A stretch of 64,000 nt of DNA from Sphyrna mokarran (lineage: Eukaryota): positions 50,344,001 to 50,408,000 of the forward strand of contig JAGIQG010000007.1 of NCBI GenBank assembly GCA_024679065.1. The letters are read 5' to 3'. Below the pieces are notes generated by a model that was given only the letters and a program-made list of their open reading frames with translations, was not told the origin of the DNA and searched no databases. Every line of letters begins with the position of its first letter. Position 1 is the stretch's first letter. Both the position numbers and the translations under genes were made by a program. Of the stretch, positions 9,179 through 62,574 are shown one piece after another.

Positions 9179-11838
9179 CATAGATCATAGAACCCTACAG
9201 TACAGAAGGAGGCTCTTCAGCCATTCGAGTCTGCACCAATCACAATCCCATCCAGGCCCTACCCCCATACCTCTACATATTATACCCTCTAACCTACACA
9301 TCCCTGAACACTAAGGGGCAATTTCTTAGCATGGCCGATCAACCTAACCCACACATCTTTGGACTGAGAGGAAACCAGAGTACCTGGAGGAAACCTGTGC
9401 AGACACGAGGAGAATTAATTATTAATTTTTTTTTTTATTAAGCAACACAGCACGGGAAACAGGCCCTTCGGCCCAACGAGCCCGCGCCGCCATCATACCA
9501 AATACATTATCCTATTTTAATATTCCTATATAATAATATATATATTATTTCTAATATGGAAAATTTTCACCATAGGGGCAATTTGTTTCCCAATCAGCCT
9601 AAGAGCGAATTTTTGGGTTGTGGGAGGAAACCGGAGTGCCCGGAGAAAACCCACGCAACCACGGGGAGAACGCGCAAACTCCCGCAGACACCGGCCCAAT
9701 TCCCAAGTGTCTGCACAGCCACATCGATAGTCTCTGAGCTGTCATGGTGCCCTTCAGGTGGTCCACATAAAGCACTCATATACGACATGAGGTACCAGGC
9801 AACCCATGAATCAACATCCAAGAGCTGTACCCGCACCACCTGCCGAATGCATGCTCAAATTATGGACCGAATTACCTGTGGAAAAAAGCCGTAGTTTAAC
9901 AGTCCTAATATATCCCTCTATCTGCATACCGCTCATGTGGCTGTCCAAGAGACCCTTAAACAGCCCCAGCGTGCCTGCTCCCACCACCTTACTCGGCAGT
10001 GCATTCCACACCCCCACTACCCGTTGTGTGAAAAACTGCCCTCTAATATTCGTCCTATACATAGCCCCCCTCACCCTATGGCCATGACCTCTCGTCCTAT
10101 TCATTTCTAAAGGTGGAAAAAGTTTACCTCCATTTACTCTATCTATACCCCTTATAATCTTATACACCTCTATGAGATCCCCTCTAAGCCGACGTCTTTC
10201 AAGGGAAAAAAACCCCAGTCTATCTAATCGTTCCTCATAGGACAGTCCTTCCATACCAGGCAGCATCCTGGTAAACCTCCTCTGCACTCTCTCCCAGGAC
10301 TCCACATCCTTCCGATAGTACGGAGACCAGAACTGGGCGCAGTATTCCAAGTGAGGCCTAACCAAAGTTGTATACAACTGCAACATCAAACTCCTACTCT
10401 TATATTCTATACCCTTTTCTATGAAAGCTAACATACGATACGCCTTCTTTGTCACCTTCTCCACCTGTGAGGACACCTTCAGAGACTTGTGAACCTGCAC
10501 CCCCAAGTCTCTCTGCGTCGCTATGCTCCTTATAGTTTTACCTTTTATCCTATAATTCTCTTCTACATTTTTCCGGCCAAAATGCATCACCTCGCATTTT
10601 TCCGGATTAAATTCCATTTGCCATCTATCTGCCCAATCTACCAACCTGTCTATGTCCTGTTGTATTGCCTGACACTGCTCTTCTGTACCCACCAATCCAA
10701 GCATCTTGGTGTCATCAGCAAATTTGCTGATCTCACCACCTACCCCAACTTCCAAGTCGTTTACGTAGACCACAAATAGAAGAGGACCTAGTACTGAGCC
10801 TTGTGGCACTCCACTAGTGACAGGCTTCCAGCCGGAAAAAAAGCCTTCCACTATTACCCTCTGTCTCCTCCTCCCGAGCCAGTTCTCGACCCATCTACAT
10901 ACCCGACCCTGTATCCCATGCGCCTTCAACTTCTCTATCAGTCTACCATGAGGAAACTTGTCAAACGCCTTACTGAAATCCATGTAGACGACATCAACAG
11001 CATGTCCTTCATCAACTGTTTTTGTCACTTCAAAAAATTCCACTAGATTTGTAAGACAAGACTTCCCCTTGACGAAGCCATGCTGCGTATCCCTGATCAG
11101 ATCAGATCGCAGCGCTCCAGATGCTCATACATCCTGTCCCTAAGGATCCTCTCCATTAGCTTACCTATAACTGAAGTCAAGCTCACCGGCCTATAGTTCC
11201 CTGGGTGATCCCTCTGACATTTTTTAAACAACGGTACTACGTTTGCTATCCTCCAGTCCTCTGGGACCTCACCTGTGTCCAAGGAAGAGACAAAGATTTG
11301 CGTCAGAGGCCCAGCCAAGTCTTCCCTCAACTCCCTTAGCAGCCTGGTGTAAATGCCATCAGGCCCCGGAGCTTTATATGTCTTTAAGCTGCCTAACAGC
11401 CCCAACACCTCTTTCCTCGTAATCCTTATTTCCCTCAACCAATCCTCAACTTTGTCAACATCACGCACAGACATCTGTCCAGTCTCCTGCGTGAATACCG
11501 ACGCAAAGTATTCATTCAGGATCTCCCCCATTCCCTCAGGCTCTAAGCATAGATCCCCTCCTCTGTCCCTAAGAGGTCCAATCTTGCCTCTAACCATCCT
11601 TTTGCTCCTTACCTAGGTGTAAAATGCCTTTGGATTTTCCTTAATCCTACCTGCCAGAGCCACCTCGTGGCCCCTTTTTGCCTTTCTAATACCCCTTTTA
11701 AGATCCCGTCTACACTCTCTATAAGCTTCCAGCGCTATCTAATGTGCAAACTCCACACAGTGGTTCAAGTTGGGAATCGAACTCAGGATCCTGGAGCTGT
11801 GAAGCAGCAGTGCTAACCACTGTGCTACCGTGCCGCCC
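9179..11838 (-). mobile_element. tRNA-derived V-domain SINE (shark HE1-like), split into 9179-9415 and 11741-11838
   Basis: Head GGGCGGCACGGTAGCACAGTGGTTAGCAC (A box) and GAGTTCGATTCC (B box) at 11838-11770; the body continues at 9415 across the LINE. Confidence 0.85.
9416..11740 (-). mobile_element. 5'-truncated young CR1 LINE with the same composite 3' UTR, inserted into a SINE
   Basis: ORFs 9811-11043 and 11097-11597 encode RT. Visible lesions are an ATCAG duplication near 11096-11105 and a TAG near 11613. Ends in an A-rich tail (T run 9426-9436). Confidence 0.93.
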
Positions 11839-24255: not shown

Positions 24256-24944
24256 GTAGGTATTTTTCTCATTATATGATTAGCCTGTTGTAGTTAATTA
24301 GAAATGTGCTGGTGCACTATTGTTTTACCCACTTGCGTTGGATAGTCAGAACTACATTGATCTTTTCCTCTTTCATTCAATGCAGAGTGTCTGACTCTAG
24401 AAAGGATTGAGTGGTTAGTTGCTATTCTGAGACATTTGTGCTTGTGCATGTACTGACTTGCAATAATAGTTGTCAGATAAACTCAATGTAACTGAAATGG
24501 ACTGTTATCAGTATGTTTAATTTCAGAAACAGATGCTTCAAAATCCTTGTTGGAATATGATTCAAAAGATGAAAAATTTGCTTTGCAATAGACCAACAAC
24601 TGAAAAACGTAAAATGGCATTTAGCCCCCTGGAGATTTTCTGTCAAAATTCGTACAAATATGAGAGTTTTGCATTCAAATTCAAGTAACCTTTTCCATTA
24701 CACTAATCGCTATTTTCCCATCCTTTCTTGATGCAGTCATGATATCAGAGGACTAATGTACCTTTTGACGGTAAACTGAATAGTTAAAGGCCAGTCAACC
24801 TAACATCAATAGTGGGCAAGTTTTTGGAGTAAAGCAAATTCTGAAGTATTCATTTACAGAGGCAAATATCAATTGTTGAAAGTTAGCATTCTTTTGTTAA
24901 GAAAAAGTAGTGTCTGACTTATTTGAATTTTTCTGAGGCGGTTG

Positions 24945-25262
24945 ATGAACAGCACGACAGCTCAGTGACTATCACTGTTGCTGTGCAGATACAGGGATTT
25001 GGGCCAGTATCTGTGGAGTTTGAGCATTCTCCCCATGCTTGTGTGGGTTTTCTCCGGGTGCTCTGGTTTCTTGCCACACCCCAAAGATGTGCTCTTAAGC
25101 TGATTGGCGCAACAAATTGACCCTGAATAGTCTCTCCAAATTTGGCTCCAGTGCAGATTTCTGTAAATATAGACAAGGGTTATGGAGGGAAGTGAGAATG
25201 TTAAAATGGCGGCGCGGGCTCGTTGGACCAAAGGGCCTGTTTCCCGGGTTGTTTTGTTCTTT
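24945..25262 (+). mobile_element. Isolated 3' module (degenerate V-SINE body + tail) of the composite CR1 family
   Basis: Aligns with the reverse complement of 56979-57295 and 9441-9754, and shares their diagnostic substitutions. Confidence 0.85.
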
Positions 25263-25600
25263 GTTAGTATCGCTGCCTCTGAGCGCCAGGAACCCAGGTT
25301 CGATTCCAGTTTTAAGTGACTGTGTGGACTTTGCATGTTCTTCCTATATTTATGTGGGTTTCCTCTGGGTACTCTGTTTCCTCTCATAGTTAAAGGATGT
25401 GCAGGTTAGGTGGGTTGGCAATGTAAATTTTCCCCTTACTTTTCAAAAGTGTATGGGTTAAGTGGATTAGCCATGGTAAATGCCCAGGGTTACAATATAA
25501 GATGGAGGGAAGGGCCTGAATGGGATGTGCCTTTGGAGAATTGGTGCAGATTTGATGGACTGGATGACCTCTTTCTGACTGGGCTTCTAGGGTTCTGTCT
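25263..25600 (+). mobile_element. HE1-like V-SINE, 5'-clipped
   Basis: B box GGTTCGATTCC, V-type core GTGGGTTTCCTCTGGGTACTC, degenerate CR1-type tail. Confidence 0.75.
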
Positions 25601-56845: not shown

Positions 56846-57507
56846 CTCCTCCTCATCCCCTTCACATAGAGATAGGGCTATGCACAAGATACATTCCACA
56901 AGGGATGTCTGGATGTCTTATGAACTGAGTCTGTATTTAATGTTTCTGTATGTATCTGCATCATTAGTAATTTGTTATCAAAGAACAAAACAGCATGGGA
57001 AACAGGCCCTTCGGCCCAACGTGGTGGCAGCACCACCTCGATGTTCCCACCTCTACACGCGATCCCTGTCCATGTTTATAGATCTATGGATTAAAAACCA
57101 AATTTGAGACAATTTAGGGAGAATTTGTTTTGCCAATTAGCCTAAGAGCACATCTTTGGGATGTGGGAGGAAACCGGAGCTCCTGGAGAAAACCCACGCA
57201 AGCACGGGGAGAATGCGCAAACTCCCACAGACACAGGCCCAAATCCATGTATCTGCACAGCACAGCTATAGTCACTGCGCTGTCATGTTGCCCATCAGAT
57301 GGTCCAGGTCAAGCATACACTAACGATGTGAAGCAGTAGGATACTCCTGAAAAAGATCCAAGAGCAGTCCTCTCACGACCCATCGCGTGTATGCCCCTTG
57401 TTAGACAACAAGGTGGACCAAAGCACCTGTAGGATAAAAACAAGTACATCAATATCATCATCTATTTACACCCTTCCCAGGGCCTCCCAAGGCTCATGAT
57501 CCCTATT

Positions 57508-60417
57508 TTAAATCAGTTTTCTATACCCCTCCATTCCCATTCTGTTCATGTGCCCATCTAAGTATTTCTTATATATCTCCAGAGTACCTGCCTCCACCAC
57601 TTTACTTGGTAGCGCATTCCATACCCCCACCACCCTCTGTGTGAAAAAGCTCCCTCTAGCATCCAAATTATACCTTACCCTCCTCACCCTAAGCCCGTGA
57701 CCCCTCGTGCTATTTGAGTCCTTCCTAGGAAAAAGCTTAGCCCTGTTTACTCTATCTACCCCCTTCAAAATCTTGTACGCCTCTATCAGATCTCCTCTAA
57801 GTCTACGACTTTCTAAGGAAAACAGTCCCAATTTGCCTAATCTCTCCTCGTAACTCAGACCTTCCATACCAGGCAGCATCCTGATAAACCTCCTCTGCAC
57901 TCTTTCCAGAGTCTCCACGTCCTTCCGGTAGTAAGGCGACCAGAACTGGACACAGTATTCCAAATGAGGTCTAACCAGCGTTTTATACAACTGCAACATT
58001 AAAGGCCAGCTCTTGTACTCTACACTCCTTCCTATAAAGGCTAGTATACTATATGCTTTCTTCACAACCTTCTCCACTTGCTCTGCCACCTTCAGAGACT
58101 TGTTCACCTGCACCCCCAGGTCCCTCTGCATTTCTATACTCTTAGTAGATCTACCCTTTATCATTTACCTCCCCCCTACGTTTTTTCTCTTGAAATGCAT
58201 CACCTCACACTTATCAGGATTGAATTCCACCTGCCATCTGTCTGCCCAAGCTACCAGCCTATCTATGTCCTGCTGCATCGCCTGACAATGCTCCTCATTA
58301 TCCGCAAGTCCAGCCATCTTTGTATCGTCTGCAAACTTGCTGATCACTCCACTTACTCCCTCTTCCAAGTCATTTATATATATTACTAATAGAAGAGGTC
58401 CCAGTACCGAGCCCTGCGGCACACCACTAGTGACCGACCTCCAGCTAGAGAAACACCCTTCCACTATTACTCTCTGTCTCCTATTATCAAGCCAGTTGCT
58501 TATCCATCTAGCTACCTGTACTTGTATCCCATTTGCCTTGACCTTCTTGACTAACCTCCCATGAGGGACTTTGTCAAACGCCTTACTAAAATCCATATAG
58601 ACAACATCAATGACTCGCCCTTCGTCTACCGTTTTCGTCACCTCCTCAAAAAATTCTACCAGATTTGTAAGGCACGACCTCCCCTTAACAAATCCATGCT
58701 GCGTATCCCTAATCAGATTGCAACACTCTAAGTGCCTATACATCCTATCTCTAAGAATCCCTCCAACAGCTTCCCTACCACTGACGTCAAACTCATCGGC
58801 CTATAATTTCCAGGGTTATCCCTACCACCCTTTTTAAACAACGGTACAACATTAGCTATTCTCCAGTCCTCTGGGACCTCACCTGTGTCTAAGGAAGAGA
58901 CAAAGATTTGCTTCAGAGGCCCAGCAATTTCACCTCGCACCTCTCTAAGCAGTCTGGGATAAATGCCATCAGACCCTGGAGATTTGTCAGTTTTAATACT
59001 ACCTAGAAGCTCTAACACTTCCTCCCTCGGTATGGATATTTCCCTCAACTGGTCCACAGCTCCCTCAGAGACAGGAGCTGTCAACAAGCCCCTCTCCTTC
59101 GTGAATACTGACACAAAGTATTCATTCTGGATCTCCGCCATTCCCTCGGGGTCTAAGCACAATTCCCCTCCTCTGTCCCTAAGAGGTCCAATTTTTCCTC
59201 TAACCACCCTTTTATTCCTAACATAGGAGTAAAAAGCCTTTGGATTTTCCTTAATCCAATCCACCAAAATCATTTCATGCCCTTTTTGCCCTTCTAACTC
59301 CCTGTTTGAGCTCCCTCCTACTCTGTCTATATTCCTTCAATGCTGTCTCGGTTCCCAGCTGCTTCGACCTATCATACGCTTCTCTTTTCTTCCTAACCAA
59401 GTCCTCAATATCCCTAGTAATCCACGGCTCTCTAATCCTACCTTTCCCATCTTTCCTCTTGGCTGGCACGTACTTATCTTGCAACATTTTCAGTATTCCC
59501 TTGAAATAGTCCCACATGCCTAGCGTGGACTTACCCTCAAACAACCGTTCCCAATCAGTTTCCATAAGTCCCTGCCTAATTTGACCGTAGTTAGCCTTCC
59601 CCCAATTCAGCACCCTGCCCCTGGGGCAACAAGCATCCTTTTCTATCTGTATCCTAAAGTAGACAGAATTGTGGTCACTATTAGCCACATGTTCCCCTAC
59701 TACAACATCAACCACCTGCCCTGGCTCACTACTCAGAACTAAATCCAATATAGCCCCTTCTCTAGTCGGGCTAGCCACATACTGTTCCAACGATCCTTCC
59801 AGTACACATTTTACAAATTCCTGCCCATCCAAACCTCCAGCTCTGGGTACTTTCCAATCCACCCTAGGGAGATTAAAATCTCCCACTATAACGACTCTGT
59901 TCTTTCTGCACCTATCCAAAATGTCTTTACACGTGCCTTCTTCAACTGCCCGTGGGCTGTTGGGTGGCCTATAATACACCCCTAGCATAGTAATTGCCCC
60001 CTTTCTATTCCTCAACTCCACCCACAGTGACTCCACTCCTAACTCCTATGTATTGTCCTCCCTCTGCACCGCCGTGATGCTCTCCTTAACTAACAACACC
60101 ACTCCCCCACCTCTTCTGGACCTTTCTCTGTCACGCCTGAAACACTTATACCCAGGAATGTTCAGTTGCCACTGCTCCCCTTCCTTTAACCACGTCTCTG
60201 TCACTGCAACCACATCCAAGTTCCTCGCAAACATTAAGGCCCTAAGTTCATCCGTTTTTCCCGTTACGCTCCTCGCATTGAAACAGACACACTCCAGACC
60301 TCCAAGCCCACTCGGAACCTCTTTCTCCCCGGTGCATCTCTTCTTGTCCAAGCTTACTCTATCACCCATATCGCTCTCTACCGAGAGATCGGTCTCATCC
60401 CCTCCCCCCCTCCACAT
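57508..60417 (-). pseudogene. CR1 ORF2 endonuclease-reverse transcriptase, broken into 5 ORFs
   Basis: ORFs 60046-60417, 59275-60036, 58728-59273, 58165-58743 and 57508-58164 are collinear; one nonsense codon plus frameshifts. Confidence 0.92.
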
Positions 60418-61335
60418 TAGTTTAAATCCTGCCGAAACACTCTAGCTAACCTCCCAGCTAAGATATTCACACCCTTCCCATTTAAGTGTTCCCCATCCCT
60501 TCTATATAGGTGCCTTTCTTTCACAAAGACTTCCCAGTTATCCATAAATATGAAACCCTCTGCCCTACACCAGTCCTTCAGCCACGCATTCAGCTGTAGG
60601 ATCTCATTTCTCCTGGCTCCGCTATTACCCGTGCCTGGAAGCAGACCTGAGATCGCCACCTTCGAGGCCCTGCTCTTCAGCCTACCCCCCAACTCCCTGA
60701 ACTGCCTTCTTATATCCTCCCTGCTCTTCCTTCCTACATCCTTCTCTCCTACGTGAATAATCACATCCGCCTTGGCCGCCCTCCCCCTTCAAAATGCCCT
60801 CTACCCTGTCTGACACATCTTGCACTCCTGCTCCAGGGAGGCAAACTACCATCCTGGAGTCCTGCCTTGGACCACAGAAACGTCTATCTATTCCTTTAAC
60901 CCTCCCATCCCCCACCACTATCTCCCTTCTAGCCCCTTTTCTCCCCTTTGAGGTACTCTGGTCCTTGTGCCTTGCCTTTTTTAACCCTCCGCCCTCGACA
61001 TTTTGGGGGGCTGCCACTGGGGAAGTCTTTGGACTGTCTCCCCTCTCCTTTTCCCCCTCCCTGACAGTAATCCACCTGTAAGGGTCAGGTTTCCCCCCCT
61101 TAGGTTTCGGGTCTGCCACCTTACTTTGCCTCCCTTCCATAATTGCCTCGTTCTCCCTGACTAAAAATGCATCTTCCAACTGGCGCTCTAGTTGCTTGAC
61201 CCGAGCCCTCAGATGCTGCAGCTCCAAACACTTGGTGCATATGTGGACTTTCTGGAGAGGTCTTACCTCCAGGAACTCCCACATGTGACACTGTACACAG
61301 GTGAGGCGTCTTCCCTTAATCCCTGCCATTGTCAT
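60417..61335 (-). pseudogene. CR1 ORF1 (zinc finger/leucine zipper + esterase), one frameshift
   Basis: ORFs 60682-61362 and 60417-60764: CVQCHMWE..CTKC, VVGDGRV, CLPGA, IIHVG, DGEHLN. Confidence 0.85.
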
Positions 61336-62574
61336 GGACACCTTTGGAGGTGTGAATTCCAATGGAAAACCAGTAGCACACTGTGTCTAAGCCTGCTCTA
61401 GCCCAAGCCCTGTGAGCCAAAGCCCTTGTATCTCTCACTCTGCTTCCCTATTCACTCCGCTGCCCGCTGTCTACTGCCACTTTCTTTTTATACTCTCTTC
61501 ACTCTTTCTGTAAATTAAGGAGACCATTAGTTTAAGCTTGAATGTGATGGTTTGATTGTGTAACATGTTTCGAATAGACTGTCACATACCATTGCCAGAG
61601 TCAGTGGGATTTATCCATCCCATTGTAGTGAATGGAGATTTGGCCGGGTGCCAAATTTTCTGGCCTCGCTGCAGTGGGAGTATGGTGTGAACAGCTGGTA
61701 AAATTGCACCCAAGTTTTTGTTTGATACAAATTACTATAGTTAAGGAACAATTACTACTCCCATCGTCTGTTAAAGAAATTGCAATATACAAAATTGCTG
61801 CAGATTTTGGTTCACAGAATCAGTCTGCTTATGGAAGCTACCTTTTTGGCTGGAATATGACTTACATTCCCAAACATTCCCTATCAGCTGCCTTTTCTCT
61901 ACGAAAAGCTATTCAAGTCTGTAAGTCTAACCTCATCGTATTTGAATCATAACTTGGGCTACTGCACAAATGTACTTTGGAGGACAAGTAACTAAAACTC
62001 TAAGTAATATTCCACAAATAATTTCATTACAGATCTATATAAGTTAATTTTTTTAATGAATTATCCAGGGGTGCACTTGAGTATTTCCGCCCATCTGCCA
62101 CTAAAACAACCTTTGTTACCACCTGACTGAATTATTCAAATAATCTCCTGGCTGGCTTCCCTTTCTCCTGAAACATTAGGTCATTCAATGCTTCTCTGCT
62201 CTTCATATTCTATCACCCCTGTACTCACTCATTAATATGGGCTCCTGAGTCTCCCCCCAATGCCCTAGATTTCAAGTTCTCATCTTCAAGTCCTGTCATG
62301 TCCTATCTCTTCCTTGCCACTACATCTTTCTTCATACCCCTTTTCCATAGTCTTGGTTTCTGACTGTGGAATTTCAGTTTTATATTTCTCTACAAGTGAT
62401 CATAAAATTGACTGCAATCTCGTGTGTCTTGGCCAGTTTGATTTGGATTTGCTCCGTACACTCTGCCCTCATAAGTGAACCAGTATTAAGTCTTTGGGTA
62501 GAAGGCACTACATAATTGTTGTTCTGATAAATATAGTTCTTCCTCTTTTTTACTTACTTTACCTTTTAAACATT

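What the first reader, a model, noticed from the sequence alone, without database searches (positions are those of the whole stretch)
57296..57429. Conserved, covarying long RNA hairpin in the LINE 3' UTR (paralog at 9755-9878)
Seen on the element sense (-) strand. This copy: CAGGU gcuuu GGUCCA [CCUUGUU gucu AACAAGG] GGCAUACAC g CGAUG..AGGA c UGCUCUUGGA ucuuu UUCAGGAGUA UCCU..CAUCG uua GUGUAUGCU ugacc UGGACC AUCUG. Copy at 9878-9755: CAGGU aauuc GGUCCA..AGCAUGCAU..CGGCA..GGUGCGGGUA CAGCUCUUGGA uguuga UUCAUGGGUUG..CCUGGUACC..UGUCG..AUGAGUGCU..UGGACC ACCUG. The primary sequences differ a lot but the nested pairing is kept: a 5-bp basal stem, a 5-nt bulge, an invariant GGUCCA/UGGACC stem and an apical GCUCUUGGA stem. 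Many G-U pairs work only on the sense strand. Inference: a structured RNA element under selection, possibly a processing or nuclease substrate, an export or packaging signal, or a protein-binding site. It does not match a ribozyme or SECIS core I recognise.
Basis: partly seen in the sequence, partly recalled or inferred. Interest (0 to 1): 0.8.

Follow-up and report, generated by a model that had tools for sequence, protein, structure and literature searches.

The report
Selected RNA fold in shark LINE
One abundant family of LINE retrotransposons in this shark-like genome carries a captured 3' untranslated module (a splice-acceptor-like site, a long predicted RNA hairpin whose pairing is kept through compensating base changes, and a disabled SINE) that likely helps the element's own RNA get exported and packaged for copying.

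Summary
The hairpin is real and under selection. It lies in the 3' UTR of a CR1 LINE lineage with at least 30,395 hairpin-bearing copies. Across 11 subfamilies the sense strand folds at z -3.0 to -6.0 (antisense +0.3 to -2.9). 7 of 50 pairs show double-sided change (0/500 shuffles), and a tree simulation keeps the fold far better than chance (0/200). Inserted copies decay equally in stems and loops, so selection acts on the active elements, not on host copies. The hairpin is one part of a roughly 450-nt insert that other CR1s seen here lack. A branch-point/pyrimidine/CAG|G acceptor-like site is buried in its basal stem, and a SINE lacking its B box follows it, conserved at 85-88%. No Rfam family fits, no miRNA seed is conserved, and it is not derived from the host miR-430 cluster. 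I found no spliced retrocopies and no 5'-end hotspot. Best reading (0.45): a shape-recognised cis element for export, stability or RNP assembly of unspliced LINE RNA. Function is untested.

The parts
57296..57429 (-). Long irregular RNA hairpin, copy c1 (A-type): basal helix, GGUCCA/UGGACC helix, three-way junction with side hairpin, main stem
57312..57395 (-). Main stem, about 39-nt 5' arm and 40-nt 3' arm, 4-6-nt loop; length essentially fixed across 11 subfamilies, holds most compensatory pairs
57396..57413 (-). Side hairpin (7 bp, 4-nt loop); decays in C1-C3 and is deleted in C4
57427..57452 (-). Splice-acceptor-like site: branch-point-like motif, pyrimidine tract, CAG|G; its last bases are predicted to pair with the hairpin's 3' base and the first Gs of the SINE part
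   Evidence: use in splicing not shown
57110..57294 (-). Captured tRNA-SINE segment (head with decayed A box and deleted B box, conserved core); predicted to be refolded into further hairpins with structure-preserving changes
57040..57109 (-). Fast-evolving AT-rich spacer
   Evidence: 43% identity A vs C4
56980..57039 (-). CR1-type 3' tail (short stem-loop motif then TTGTTCT repeats), of the kind seen in other CR1 families of the genome
57508..60441 (-). ORF2 (APE endonuclease + reverse transcriptase), broken by stops and frameshifts in this copy
60417..61386 (-). ORF1 with GDSL esterase domain, frameshifted; the element's 5' end lies near 61515
9755..9878 (-). Second hairpin, copy c2 (subfamily C4, no side hairpin), in a 5'-truncated element spanning about 9430-11720 that ends in poly(A)
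24943..25266 (+). Third, 5'-truncated copy (matches E-type relatives) holding only the SINE part and tail

Best explanation
The hairpin is the core of a captured, selected 3'-UTR module of one CR1 LINE lineage and likely acts in cis as a shape-recognised RNA signal that helps full-length, unspliced element RNA to be exported, stabilised or assembled into retrotransposition particles. Shown: the module sits between the ORF2 stop and the normal CR1 tail; its pairing and stem length are kept while the sequence drifts; selection acts on the active lineages; the acceptor-like site is predicted to be paired at the base and has left no spliced retrocopies. Inferred: a host double-stranded-RNA-binding or export factor (or the element's own proteins) reads the bulged stem of fixed length, and the pyrimidine tract may recruit U2AF/TREX as a decoy acceptor while pairing over AG|G blocks real splicing.
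For: Fold and covariation: (94.1% of 539 cells paired, 7 of 50 pairs with double change, 0/500 shuffles; slid controls 36-43%). Tree simulation: 33 of 77 substitutions fall in the 35 unpaired of 135 columns. Main-stem changes are 15 keep, 8 restore, 7 break and 1 still broken. Mean energy is -55.7 against a null of -41 +/- 2 (0/200), and 6 pairs switch Watson-Crick type against 1.6 expected (4-5/2000). Shape over sequence: paired columns are 69/93 identical between A1 and C4, unpaired 13/30, fourfold ORF2 sites 61/117; no invariant run above 4 nt in the arms. After insertion, stems and loops mutate alike (269/16136 vs 90/5753 non-CpG). Position matches known transport elements: PMC4588558 (part 1 of 2 read) places the LINE-1 export element between ORF2 and the 3' end and describes the ~400-nt MusD element as a multi-stem-loop 3' element. 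PMC13186709 (passages) shows that localisation signals, including that of the I factor retrotransposon, are read by helix shape and need their bulges. PMC5095910 (passages) says U2AF2-binding internal elements promote export of intronless mRNA.
Against: No functional or binding data. The other CR1 3' ends that I could see in this genome have short UTRs without the module (output partly cut), so it is not needed for CR1 retrotransposition in general. No motif of a known export element was tested. A 32-34-pair stem in 8 of 11 subfamilies also fits a pri-miRNA ruler. Acceptor-like sites occur by chance about once per 4.7 kb per strand (13 and 14 in 64 kb), and pairing alone could explain part of their conservation. 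All 11 subfamilies come from one genome and are closely related, so this is a handful of independent events, not an R-scape-grade test.
Confidence: 0.45

Rival explanations
1. The hairpin is an element-encoded pri-miRNA-like Microprocessor substrate; a fraction of transcripts is cut to give small RNAs or to limit the element's own expression.
For: Unbranched stem of 32-34 pairs with near-fixed length in 8 of 11 subfamilies, close to the ~35 bp given in PMC6298569 (passages). UGU in the loop of 7 of 11 and a CNNC at the 3' base in 9 of 11 (read by eye). Weak sub-threshold Rfam hits are miRNA families (best 25.1 bits vs cut-off 80).
Against: No conserved seed: at most 4 invariant nt in a row on either arm. 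The base is a three-way junction or a continuing helix, not single-stranded flanks, and the stem grows to 45-47 pairs in C2-C4. Basal UG is in 1 of 11 majorities. No excess of 5' ends at a predicted cut: about 52 foreign junctions among the 100 listed of 820 matches, at most 5 at one of 32 positions, counted by eye. No homology to the host miR-430 cluster. Cleavage would separate ORF2 from the tail that the RT is thought to need.
Confidence: 0.2
2. The acceptor is a working, regulated 3' splice site, and the hairpin is a switch that sets how much element RNA is spliced (for example into an ORF1-only message, or into host transcripts).
For: All 11 subfamilies keep YAG|G, 12-15 pyrimidines of 17 and a YTNAY motif, although the upstream tract shrank from about 160 nt (F) to about 20 nt (B, C). 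CAGG never changed while its pairing partner changed 4 times.
Against: No copy joins one of the listed element donors to the acceptor among the 100 of 125 (A-type) and 20 of 20 (C-type) junctions listed (donors), nor in 30 loci read in full out of 112. RNA-library contigs cross the site unspliced, and no GT..AG joint or loose end is listed there (contigs only, tables cut, 5' part of the element not covered). No single conserved donor stands out.
Confidence: 0.15
3. The module is an extended recognition or initiation platform for the element's own ORF2 protein during target-primed reverse transcription (as with the structured R2 3' UTR; recalled).
For: Selection acts on active lineages only. 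Stringent LINEs use 3' stem-loops (PMC3747384, passage). The SINE part is as conserved as second codon positions (85-88% vs 86%).
Against: The ordinary CR1 tail motif is intact 260 nt downstream and of the same kind as in short-UTR families. The hairpin shows no change in truncation rate (1.01 per kb vs 0.85-0.98 in ORF2).
Confidence: 0.15
4. The hairpin is a neutral relic of a fold-back capture that persists only by descent.
For: Subfamilies are close relatives; one genome only.
Against: Random placement of the same substitutions never kept the fold (0/200 on energy, 0/2000 on fraction paired); fourfold sites between A and C4 are down to 52% identity.
Confidence: 0.05

Closest known systems
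Vertebrate canonical CR1 LINEs (shark HER1 type)
   Same: Esterase ORF1, APE-RT ORF2, short 3' stem-loop tail with tandem repeat (PMC13343379 and PMC3747384 passages)
   Different: Extra insert of about 450 nt in the 3' UTR; the C branch ends in poly(A), which PMC13343379 calls unique to Zenon among CR1-group elements
Retroelement RNA transport elements (MusD MTE, LINE-1 NXF1-binding 3'-UTR element, retroviral CTE/RTE)
   Same: Structured cis RNA between the last ORF and the 3' end, a few hundred nt (PMC4588558)
   Different: No sequence or Rfam match; no export function shown; built from a captured acceptor, hairpin and SINE
I factor localisation signal (ILS) and related Egl-BicD-bound stem-loops
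   Same: LINE-borne bulged stem-loop read by shape rather than sequence (PMC13186709 passages)
   Different: Insect system, lies in coding sequence; no homology tested or expected
Canonical pri-miRNA hairpins
   Same: Stem near 35 bp in 8 of 11 subfamilies
   Different: No conserved seed, branched or extended base, small loop
V-SINE HE1 of sharks and rays
   Same: The downstream segment aligns with the abundant host tRNA-SINE over head and core; the name HE1/V-SINE is from recall plus the table in PMC3747384
   Different: Here it is embedded in an autonomous LINE with the B box deleted; the usual direction is LINE parts into SINEs (PMC5786205 abstract)

Membership tests
Canonical CR1 LINE | Esterase-type ORF1 | tested here: met
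   Lipase_GDSL_2 E 1.8e-07 (32.3 bits, just under the 32.9 cut-off) and OSK E 5.6e-07
Canonical CR1 LINE | ORF2 with APE endonuclease and RT, closest to CR1 proteins | tested here: met
   Exo_endo_phos and RVT_1; named top relatives are bird, turtle, shark and ray RT proteins at 39-67%; no clade tree was built
Canonical CR1 LINE | 3' tail ending in a short tandem repeat, no poly(A) | tested here: inconclusive
   Repeat tail in 125 of 131 F/E/A/D/B copies, but poly(A) in 28 of 35 C copies
pri-miRNA | Stem of about 35 bp | tested here: inconclusive
   32-34 pairs in 8 of 11 subfamilies, 45-47 in C2-C4
pri-miRNA | Single-stranded basal flanks with UG, apical UGUG, CNNC | tested here: not met
   Base is a three-way junction or a helix; UG at the junction in 1 of 11; UGU but not UGUG in 7 of 11; CNNC in 9 of 11 but in a paired region (by eye)
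pri-miRNA | Conserved seed on one arm | tested here: not met
   Longest invariant run in the arms is 4 nt
pri-miRNA | Mature and star reads with precise ends | not testable with these tools
   Only contig-level runs were offered
miR-430/302 family | AAGUGCU seed and homology to the host cluster | tested here: not met
   Host cluster located; only AGUGCU is shared, and it is lost in A1, E and C1-C4; no HMM or CM match to the cluster hairpins
Known ribozymes, SECIS, snoRNA (Rfam) | Covariance-model score above gathering threshold | tested here: not met
   0 hits in the window; only sub-threshold hits at E up to 10
Hammerhead ribozyme | CUGANGA and GAAA core | tested here: not met
   The sequence after the stem reads CUGAUGG or CUGAAGG and even CUG changes in A2, E and B1; core motif recalled
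Retroelement RNA transport element | Structured cis element 3' of the last ORF | tested here: met
Retroelement RNA transport element | Rescues export or expression of an unspliced reporter; binds NXF1 or an adaptor | not testable with these tools
   needs experiment
Functional 3' splice site | Branch point, pyrimidine tract, YAG | tested here: met
   11 of 11 subfamilies, although B1, B2 and D have their YTNAY close to the AG
Functional 3' splice site | Spliced junctions in RNA or retrocopies | tested here: inconclusive
   None seen, but the RNA data were contigs with cut tables
V-SINE | V core domain matching the published consensus | not tested
   The defining paper was not held; only homology to the host SINE was shown

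The most novel reading that the evidence does not exclude
An autonomous LINE captured a host 'last exon' (acceptor, hairpin, SINE) and turned it into a decoy terminal exon: the pyrimidine tract loads U2AF and export/3'-end factors, the hairpin buries the AG so the RNA is never spliced, and one branch then switched from CR1 repeat tails to poly(A) tails. This would be a new way for an intronless retrotransposon to pass as a processed mRNA.
Probability: 0.2. Interest if true: 0.8.

Novelty: new variant of a known kind. Interest (0 to 1): 0.55.

Why it matters
CR1-group elements make up 22-34% of elasmobranch genomes (PMC13343379, passage), and their 3' UTRs are usually treated as a short RT-recognition tail. 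Here one very successful lineage has kept a composite RNA module under selection through 11 subfamilies. The series of natural compensatory changes gives ready-made alleles for asking what a LINE RNA needs besides its tail. The retained SINE core also makes the old question of why SINE core domains stay conserved testable in an autonomous element, where Pol III transcription should be irrelevant because the B box is deleted.

Tried and rejected
Rfam: nothing at gathering level in the window; only generic sub-threshold hairpin hits on c1 and c2 and none on an F-type copy. Origin from miR-430: suggested by a recalled resemblance of the 3' arm; the host cluster was found but shares no homology. 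Cleavage or RT-stall hotspot: 5' ends in 148 copies are flat at 0.85-1.35 per kb (consecutive matches on one contig, B/C-type enriched), and flat at base resolution. A-to-I editing fixed in copies: A>G in stems 23/3073 vs flanks 34/4664; loops 17/1279 is a weak excess only. Coding exon after the acceptor: no frame stays open across subfamilies. Box C/D or H/ACA snoRNA and hammerhead: motifs not kept across subfamilies (by eye). Origin of the F-specific tract: 28 hits among fetched loci, all within the family. The read test covered 57262-57960 only, so junctions to donors further 5' could show only as loose ends. Earlier scan notes: none for this genome or sequence.

Full report
Setting. The window is G000:C1326:50344001-50408000 of a 2.77-Gb genome; its repeats look like those of sharks (inference from recalled repeat families). 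The finding lies in a full-length but broken LINE on the - strand (about 56980-61515) with a GDSL-esterase ORF1 and an APE-RT ORF2, that is, a canonical CR1 by the features in PMC13343379 (passages). The paralog lies in a 5'-truncated relative that is 77% identical in ORF2.

Observation. Both hairpins fold as described: z -5.10 and -5.20 on the sense strand, -3.68 and -1.79 on the antisense strand. A pattern for the hairpin core has 30,395 exact matches in the genome and a pattern for the segment behind it 42,821; reversed controls give 0. These are lower bounds on copy number.

Anatomy. After the ORF2 stop at 57508 come an AT-rich tract ending in a branch-point-like motif, pyrimidine tract and CAG|G; the hairpin, whose first bases are that CAG; a segment homologous to the abundant host tRNA-SINE, starting 2 nt after the hairpin, with the B box deleted (alignment against a majority of 57 host SINE copies); a variable AT-rich spacer; and a normal CR1 tail. 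The other CR1 3' ends visible (output partly cut) go from stop to tail in about 100 nt, so the insert appears specific to this lineage. The intact promoter boxes of the host SINE indicate that the LINE captured the SINE and not the reverse (inference).

Subfamilies. From 211 distinct full hairpins in fetched loci, 185 were assigned by diagnostic motifs to 12 groups and 26 left unassigned. I used 11 groups (F, E, A2, A1, D, B2, B1, C1-C4) and dropped the 2-copy group containing c1. F is the most decayed and has the longest upstream tract; C4 is the youngest (copies 99-100% alike).

Selection on structure. All 11 majorities fold better on the sense strand (z -3.0 to -6.0 vs +0.3 to -2.9; 60 shuffles each). 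On one real copy per subfamily, 94.1% of 539 cells pair and 7 of 50 pairs show double-sided change, with 0 of 500 shuffles reaching this (the tool warns that this control ignores relatedness, and the structure was derived from these subfamilies). An independent RNAalifold run gave 42 pairs, 5 with double change. Stepwise examples are C-G to U-G to U-A, G-C to G-U or A-C to A-U, and U-G to C-G or U-A. To allow for relatedness I placed substitutions on a hand-set subfamily tree by parsimony: 33 of 77 fall in the 35 unpaired columns; in the 38 main pairs 15 keep, 8 restore, 7 break and 1 leaves broken a pair. Re-dealing the same substitutions at random positions, with or without CpG context, gave mean energy -41 +/- 2 against -55.7 observed (0 of 200), and 1.6-1.7 Watson-Crick switches against 6 (4-5 of 2000). 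Recombination between subfamilies (mosaic copies are visible) makes the tree approximate. Between A and C4, paired columns are 74% identical, unpaired 43%, fourfold ORF2 sites 52%, SINE head and core 85% and 88%, second codon positions 86%. The SINE part also avoids change in predicted stems (10 of 35 variable columns paired, where 100 of 180 are paired), although its folding z is weak (-1.3 to -2.6, and B1 folds better antisense). In 183 inserted copies, after removing 59 recurrent sub-lineage variants, stems and loops mutate alike (1.67% vs 1.56%). The constraint is therefore on active source elements, which argues for a benefit to retrotransposition and against host exaptation.

What it is not. 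No Rfam family. No conserved seed. No homology with the host miR-430 cluster. No cleavage or stalling signature in 5' ends. No A-to-G excess in stems.

The acceptor. All 11 subfamilies keep YAG|G and a pyrimidine tract although the tract upstream shrank from about 160 to about 20 nt; CAGG never changed while its partner strand changed four times. Against real use: no retrocopy joins a listed element donor to it (donor scores from a recalled matrix); RNA-library contigs from runs X1, X3 and X5 (three studies; X1 only guessed to be RNA) cross it unspliced and no matching joint is listed (tables cut). Such sites also arise by chance (27 in 128 kb of strand), and the last pyrimidines are predicted to pair with the SINE's first Gs, which could explain part of the conservation.

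Mechanism. Shown: position, selection on shape and length, action at the level of active elements, a predicted buried acceptor without spliced products. Inferred: a protein reads the bulged helix and improves export, stability or particle assembly, by analogy with retroelement transport elements (PMC4588558, part 1 of 2 read), shape-read localisation signals including the I factor's (PMC13186709, passages) and U2AF2-dependent export of intronless mRNA (PMC5095910, passages). I give this 0.45, a miRNA-like substrate 0.2, regulated splicing 0.15, an RT platform 0.15 and a neutral relic 0.05.

Novelty. Ten searches of the held library (about half aimed at this element, the rest at analogues) returned no description of it in their listings. 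The 2026 CR1 survey has no occurrence of 'hairpin' or 'splice', and PMC5786205 (abstract, outline, passages) treats LINE-to-SINE transfer. PMC3747384 and PMC6887750 were seen as passages, PMC6298569 as passages. Repbase, Dfam, subscription journals, the V-SINE paper and all supplements were not seen, so the family may already be catalogued. Verdict: a real, selected, apparently undescribed variant of structured 3'-UTR cis elements of retrotransposons, with function open; interest 0.55.

Noticed in passing
window 9430-9450 and C-subfamily loci (e.g. L128, L047): The C branch ends in poly(A) (28 of 35 copies) instead of TTGTTCT repeats (poly(A) in 1 of 131 others), although it belongs to an esterase-ORF1 CR1 lineage; PMC13343379 calls poly(A) tails unique to Zenon among CR1-group elements.
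   Followed up: partly
L320 (G000:C1:105273880-105280420): A tandem cluster of at least 11 miR-430-like hairpins with a near-identical AAGUGCU-seed mature sequence in about 6.5 kb; all score below the Rfam cut-off (best 36.9 vs 47.3 bits), so standard annotation would miss it.
   Followed up: partly
window 57110-57294: The SINE-derived part is more conserved between subfamilies (85-88%) than the hairpin itself (67%) despite losing its B box.
   Followed up: partly
B1 vs C4 hairpin (L264, L047): Unpaired hairpin positions are less alike (17/31) than fourfold ORF2 sites of the same lineages (120/152), hinting at accelerated change or recombination.
   Followed up: no
L001 (G000:C1326:50415295-50418515): Just outside the window, an A-type copy shares a 221-nt stretch identical to c1 but is only 94% alike over 693 nt, and abuts a C4 copy 98% like c2; possible local gene conversion.
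   Followed up: no
L054, L114, L133, L165, L175: Other young CR1 families often sit inside or directly 5' of this element's hairpin region (nested insertions), and about 40% of listed non-native 3'-arm matches are short internal deletions (by eye).
   Followed up: no
window 9811-11124: In c2 the ORF2 frame reads through into the hairpin; this is private to the copy, as subfamily C4 has a stop about 20 nt before the CAG.
   Followed up: yes
L292, L063, L293: Mosaic copies join the 5' part of one subfamily to the 3' UTR of another, so the module appears to be exchanged between lineages.
   Followed up: no
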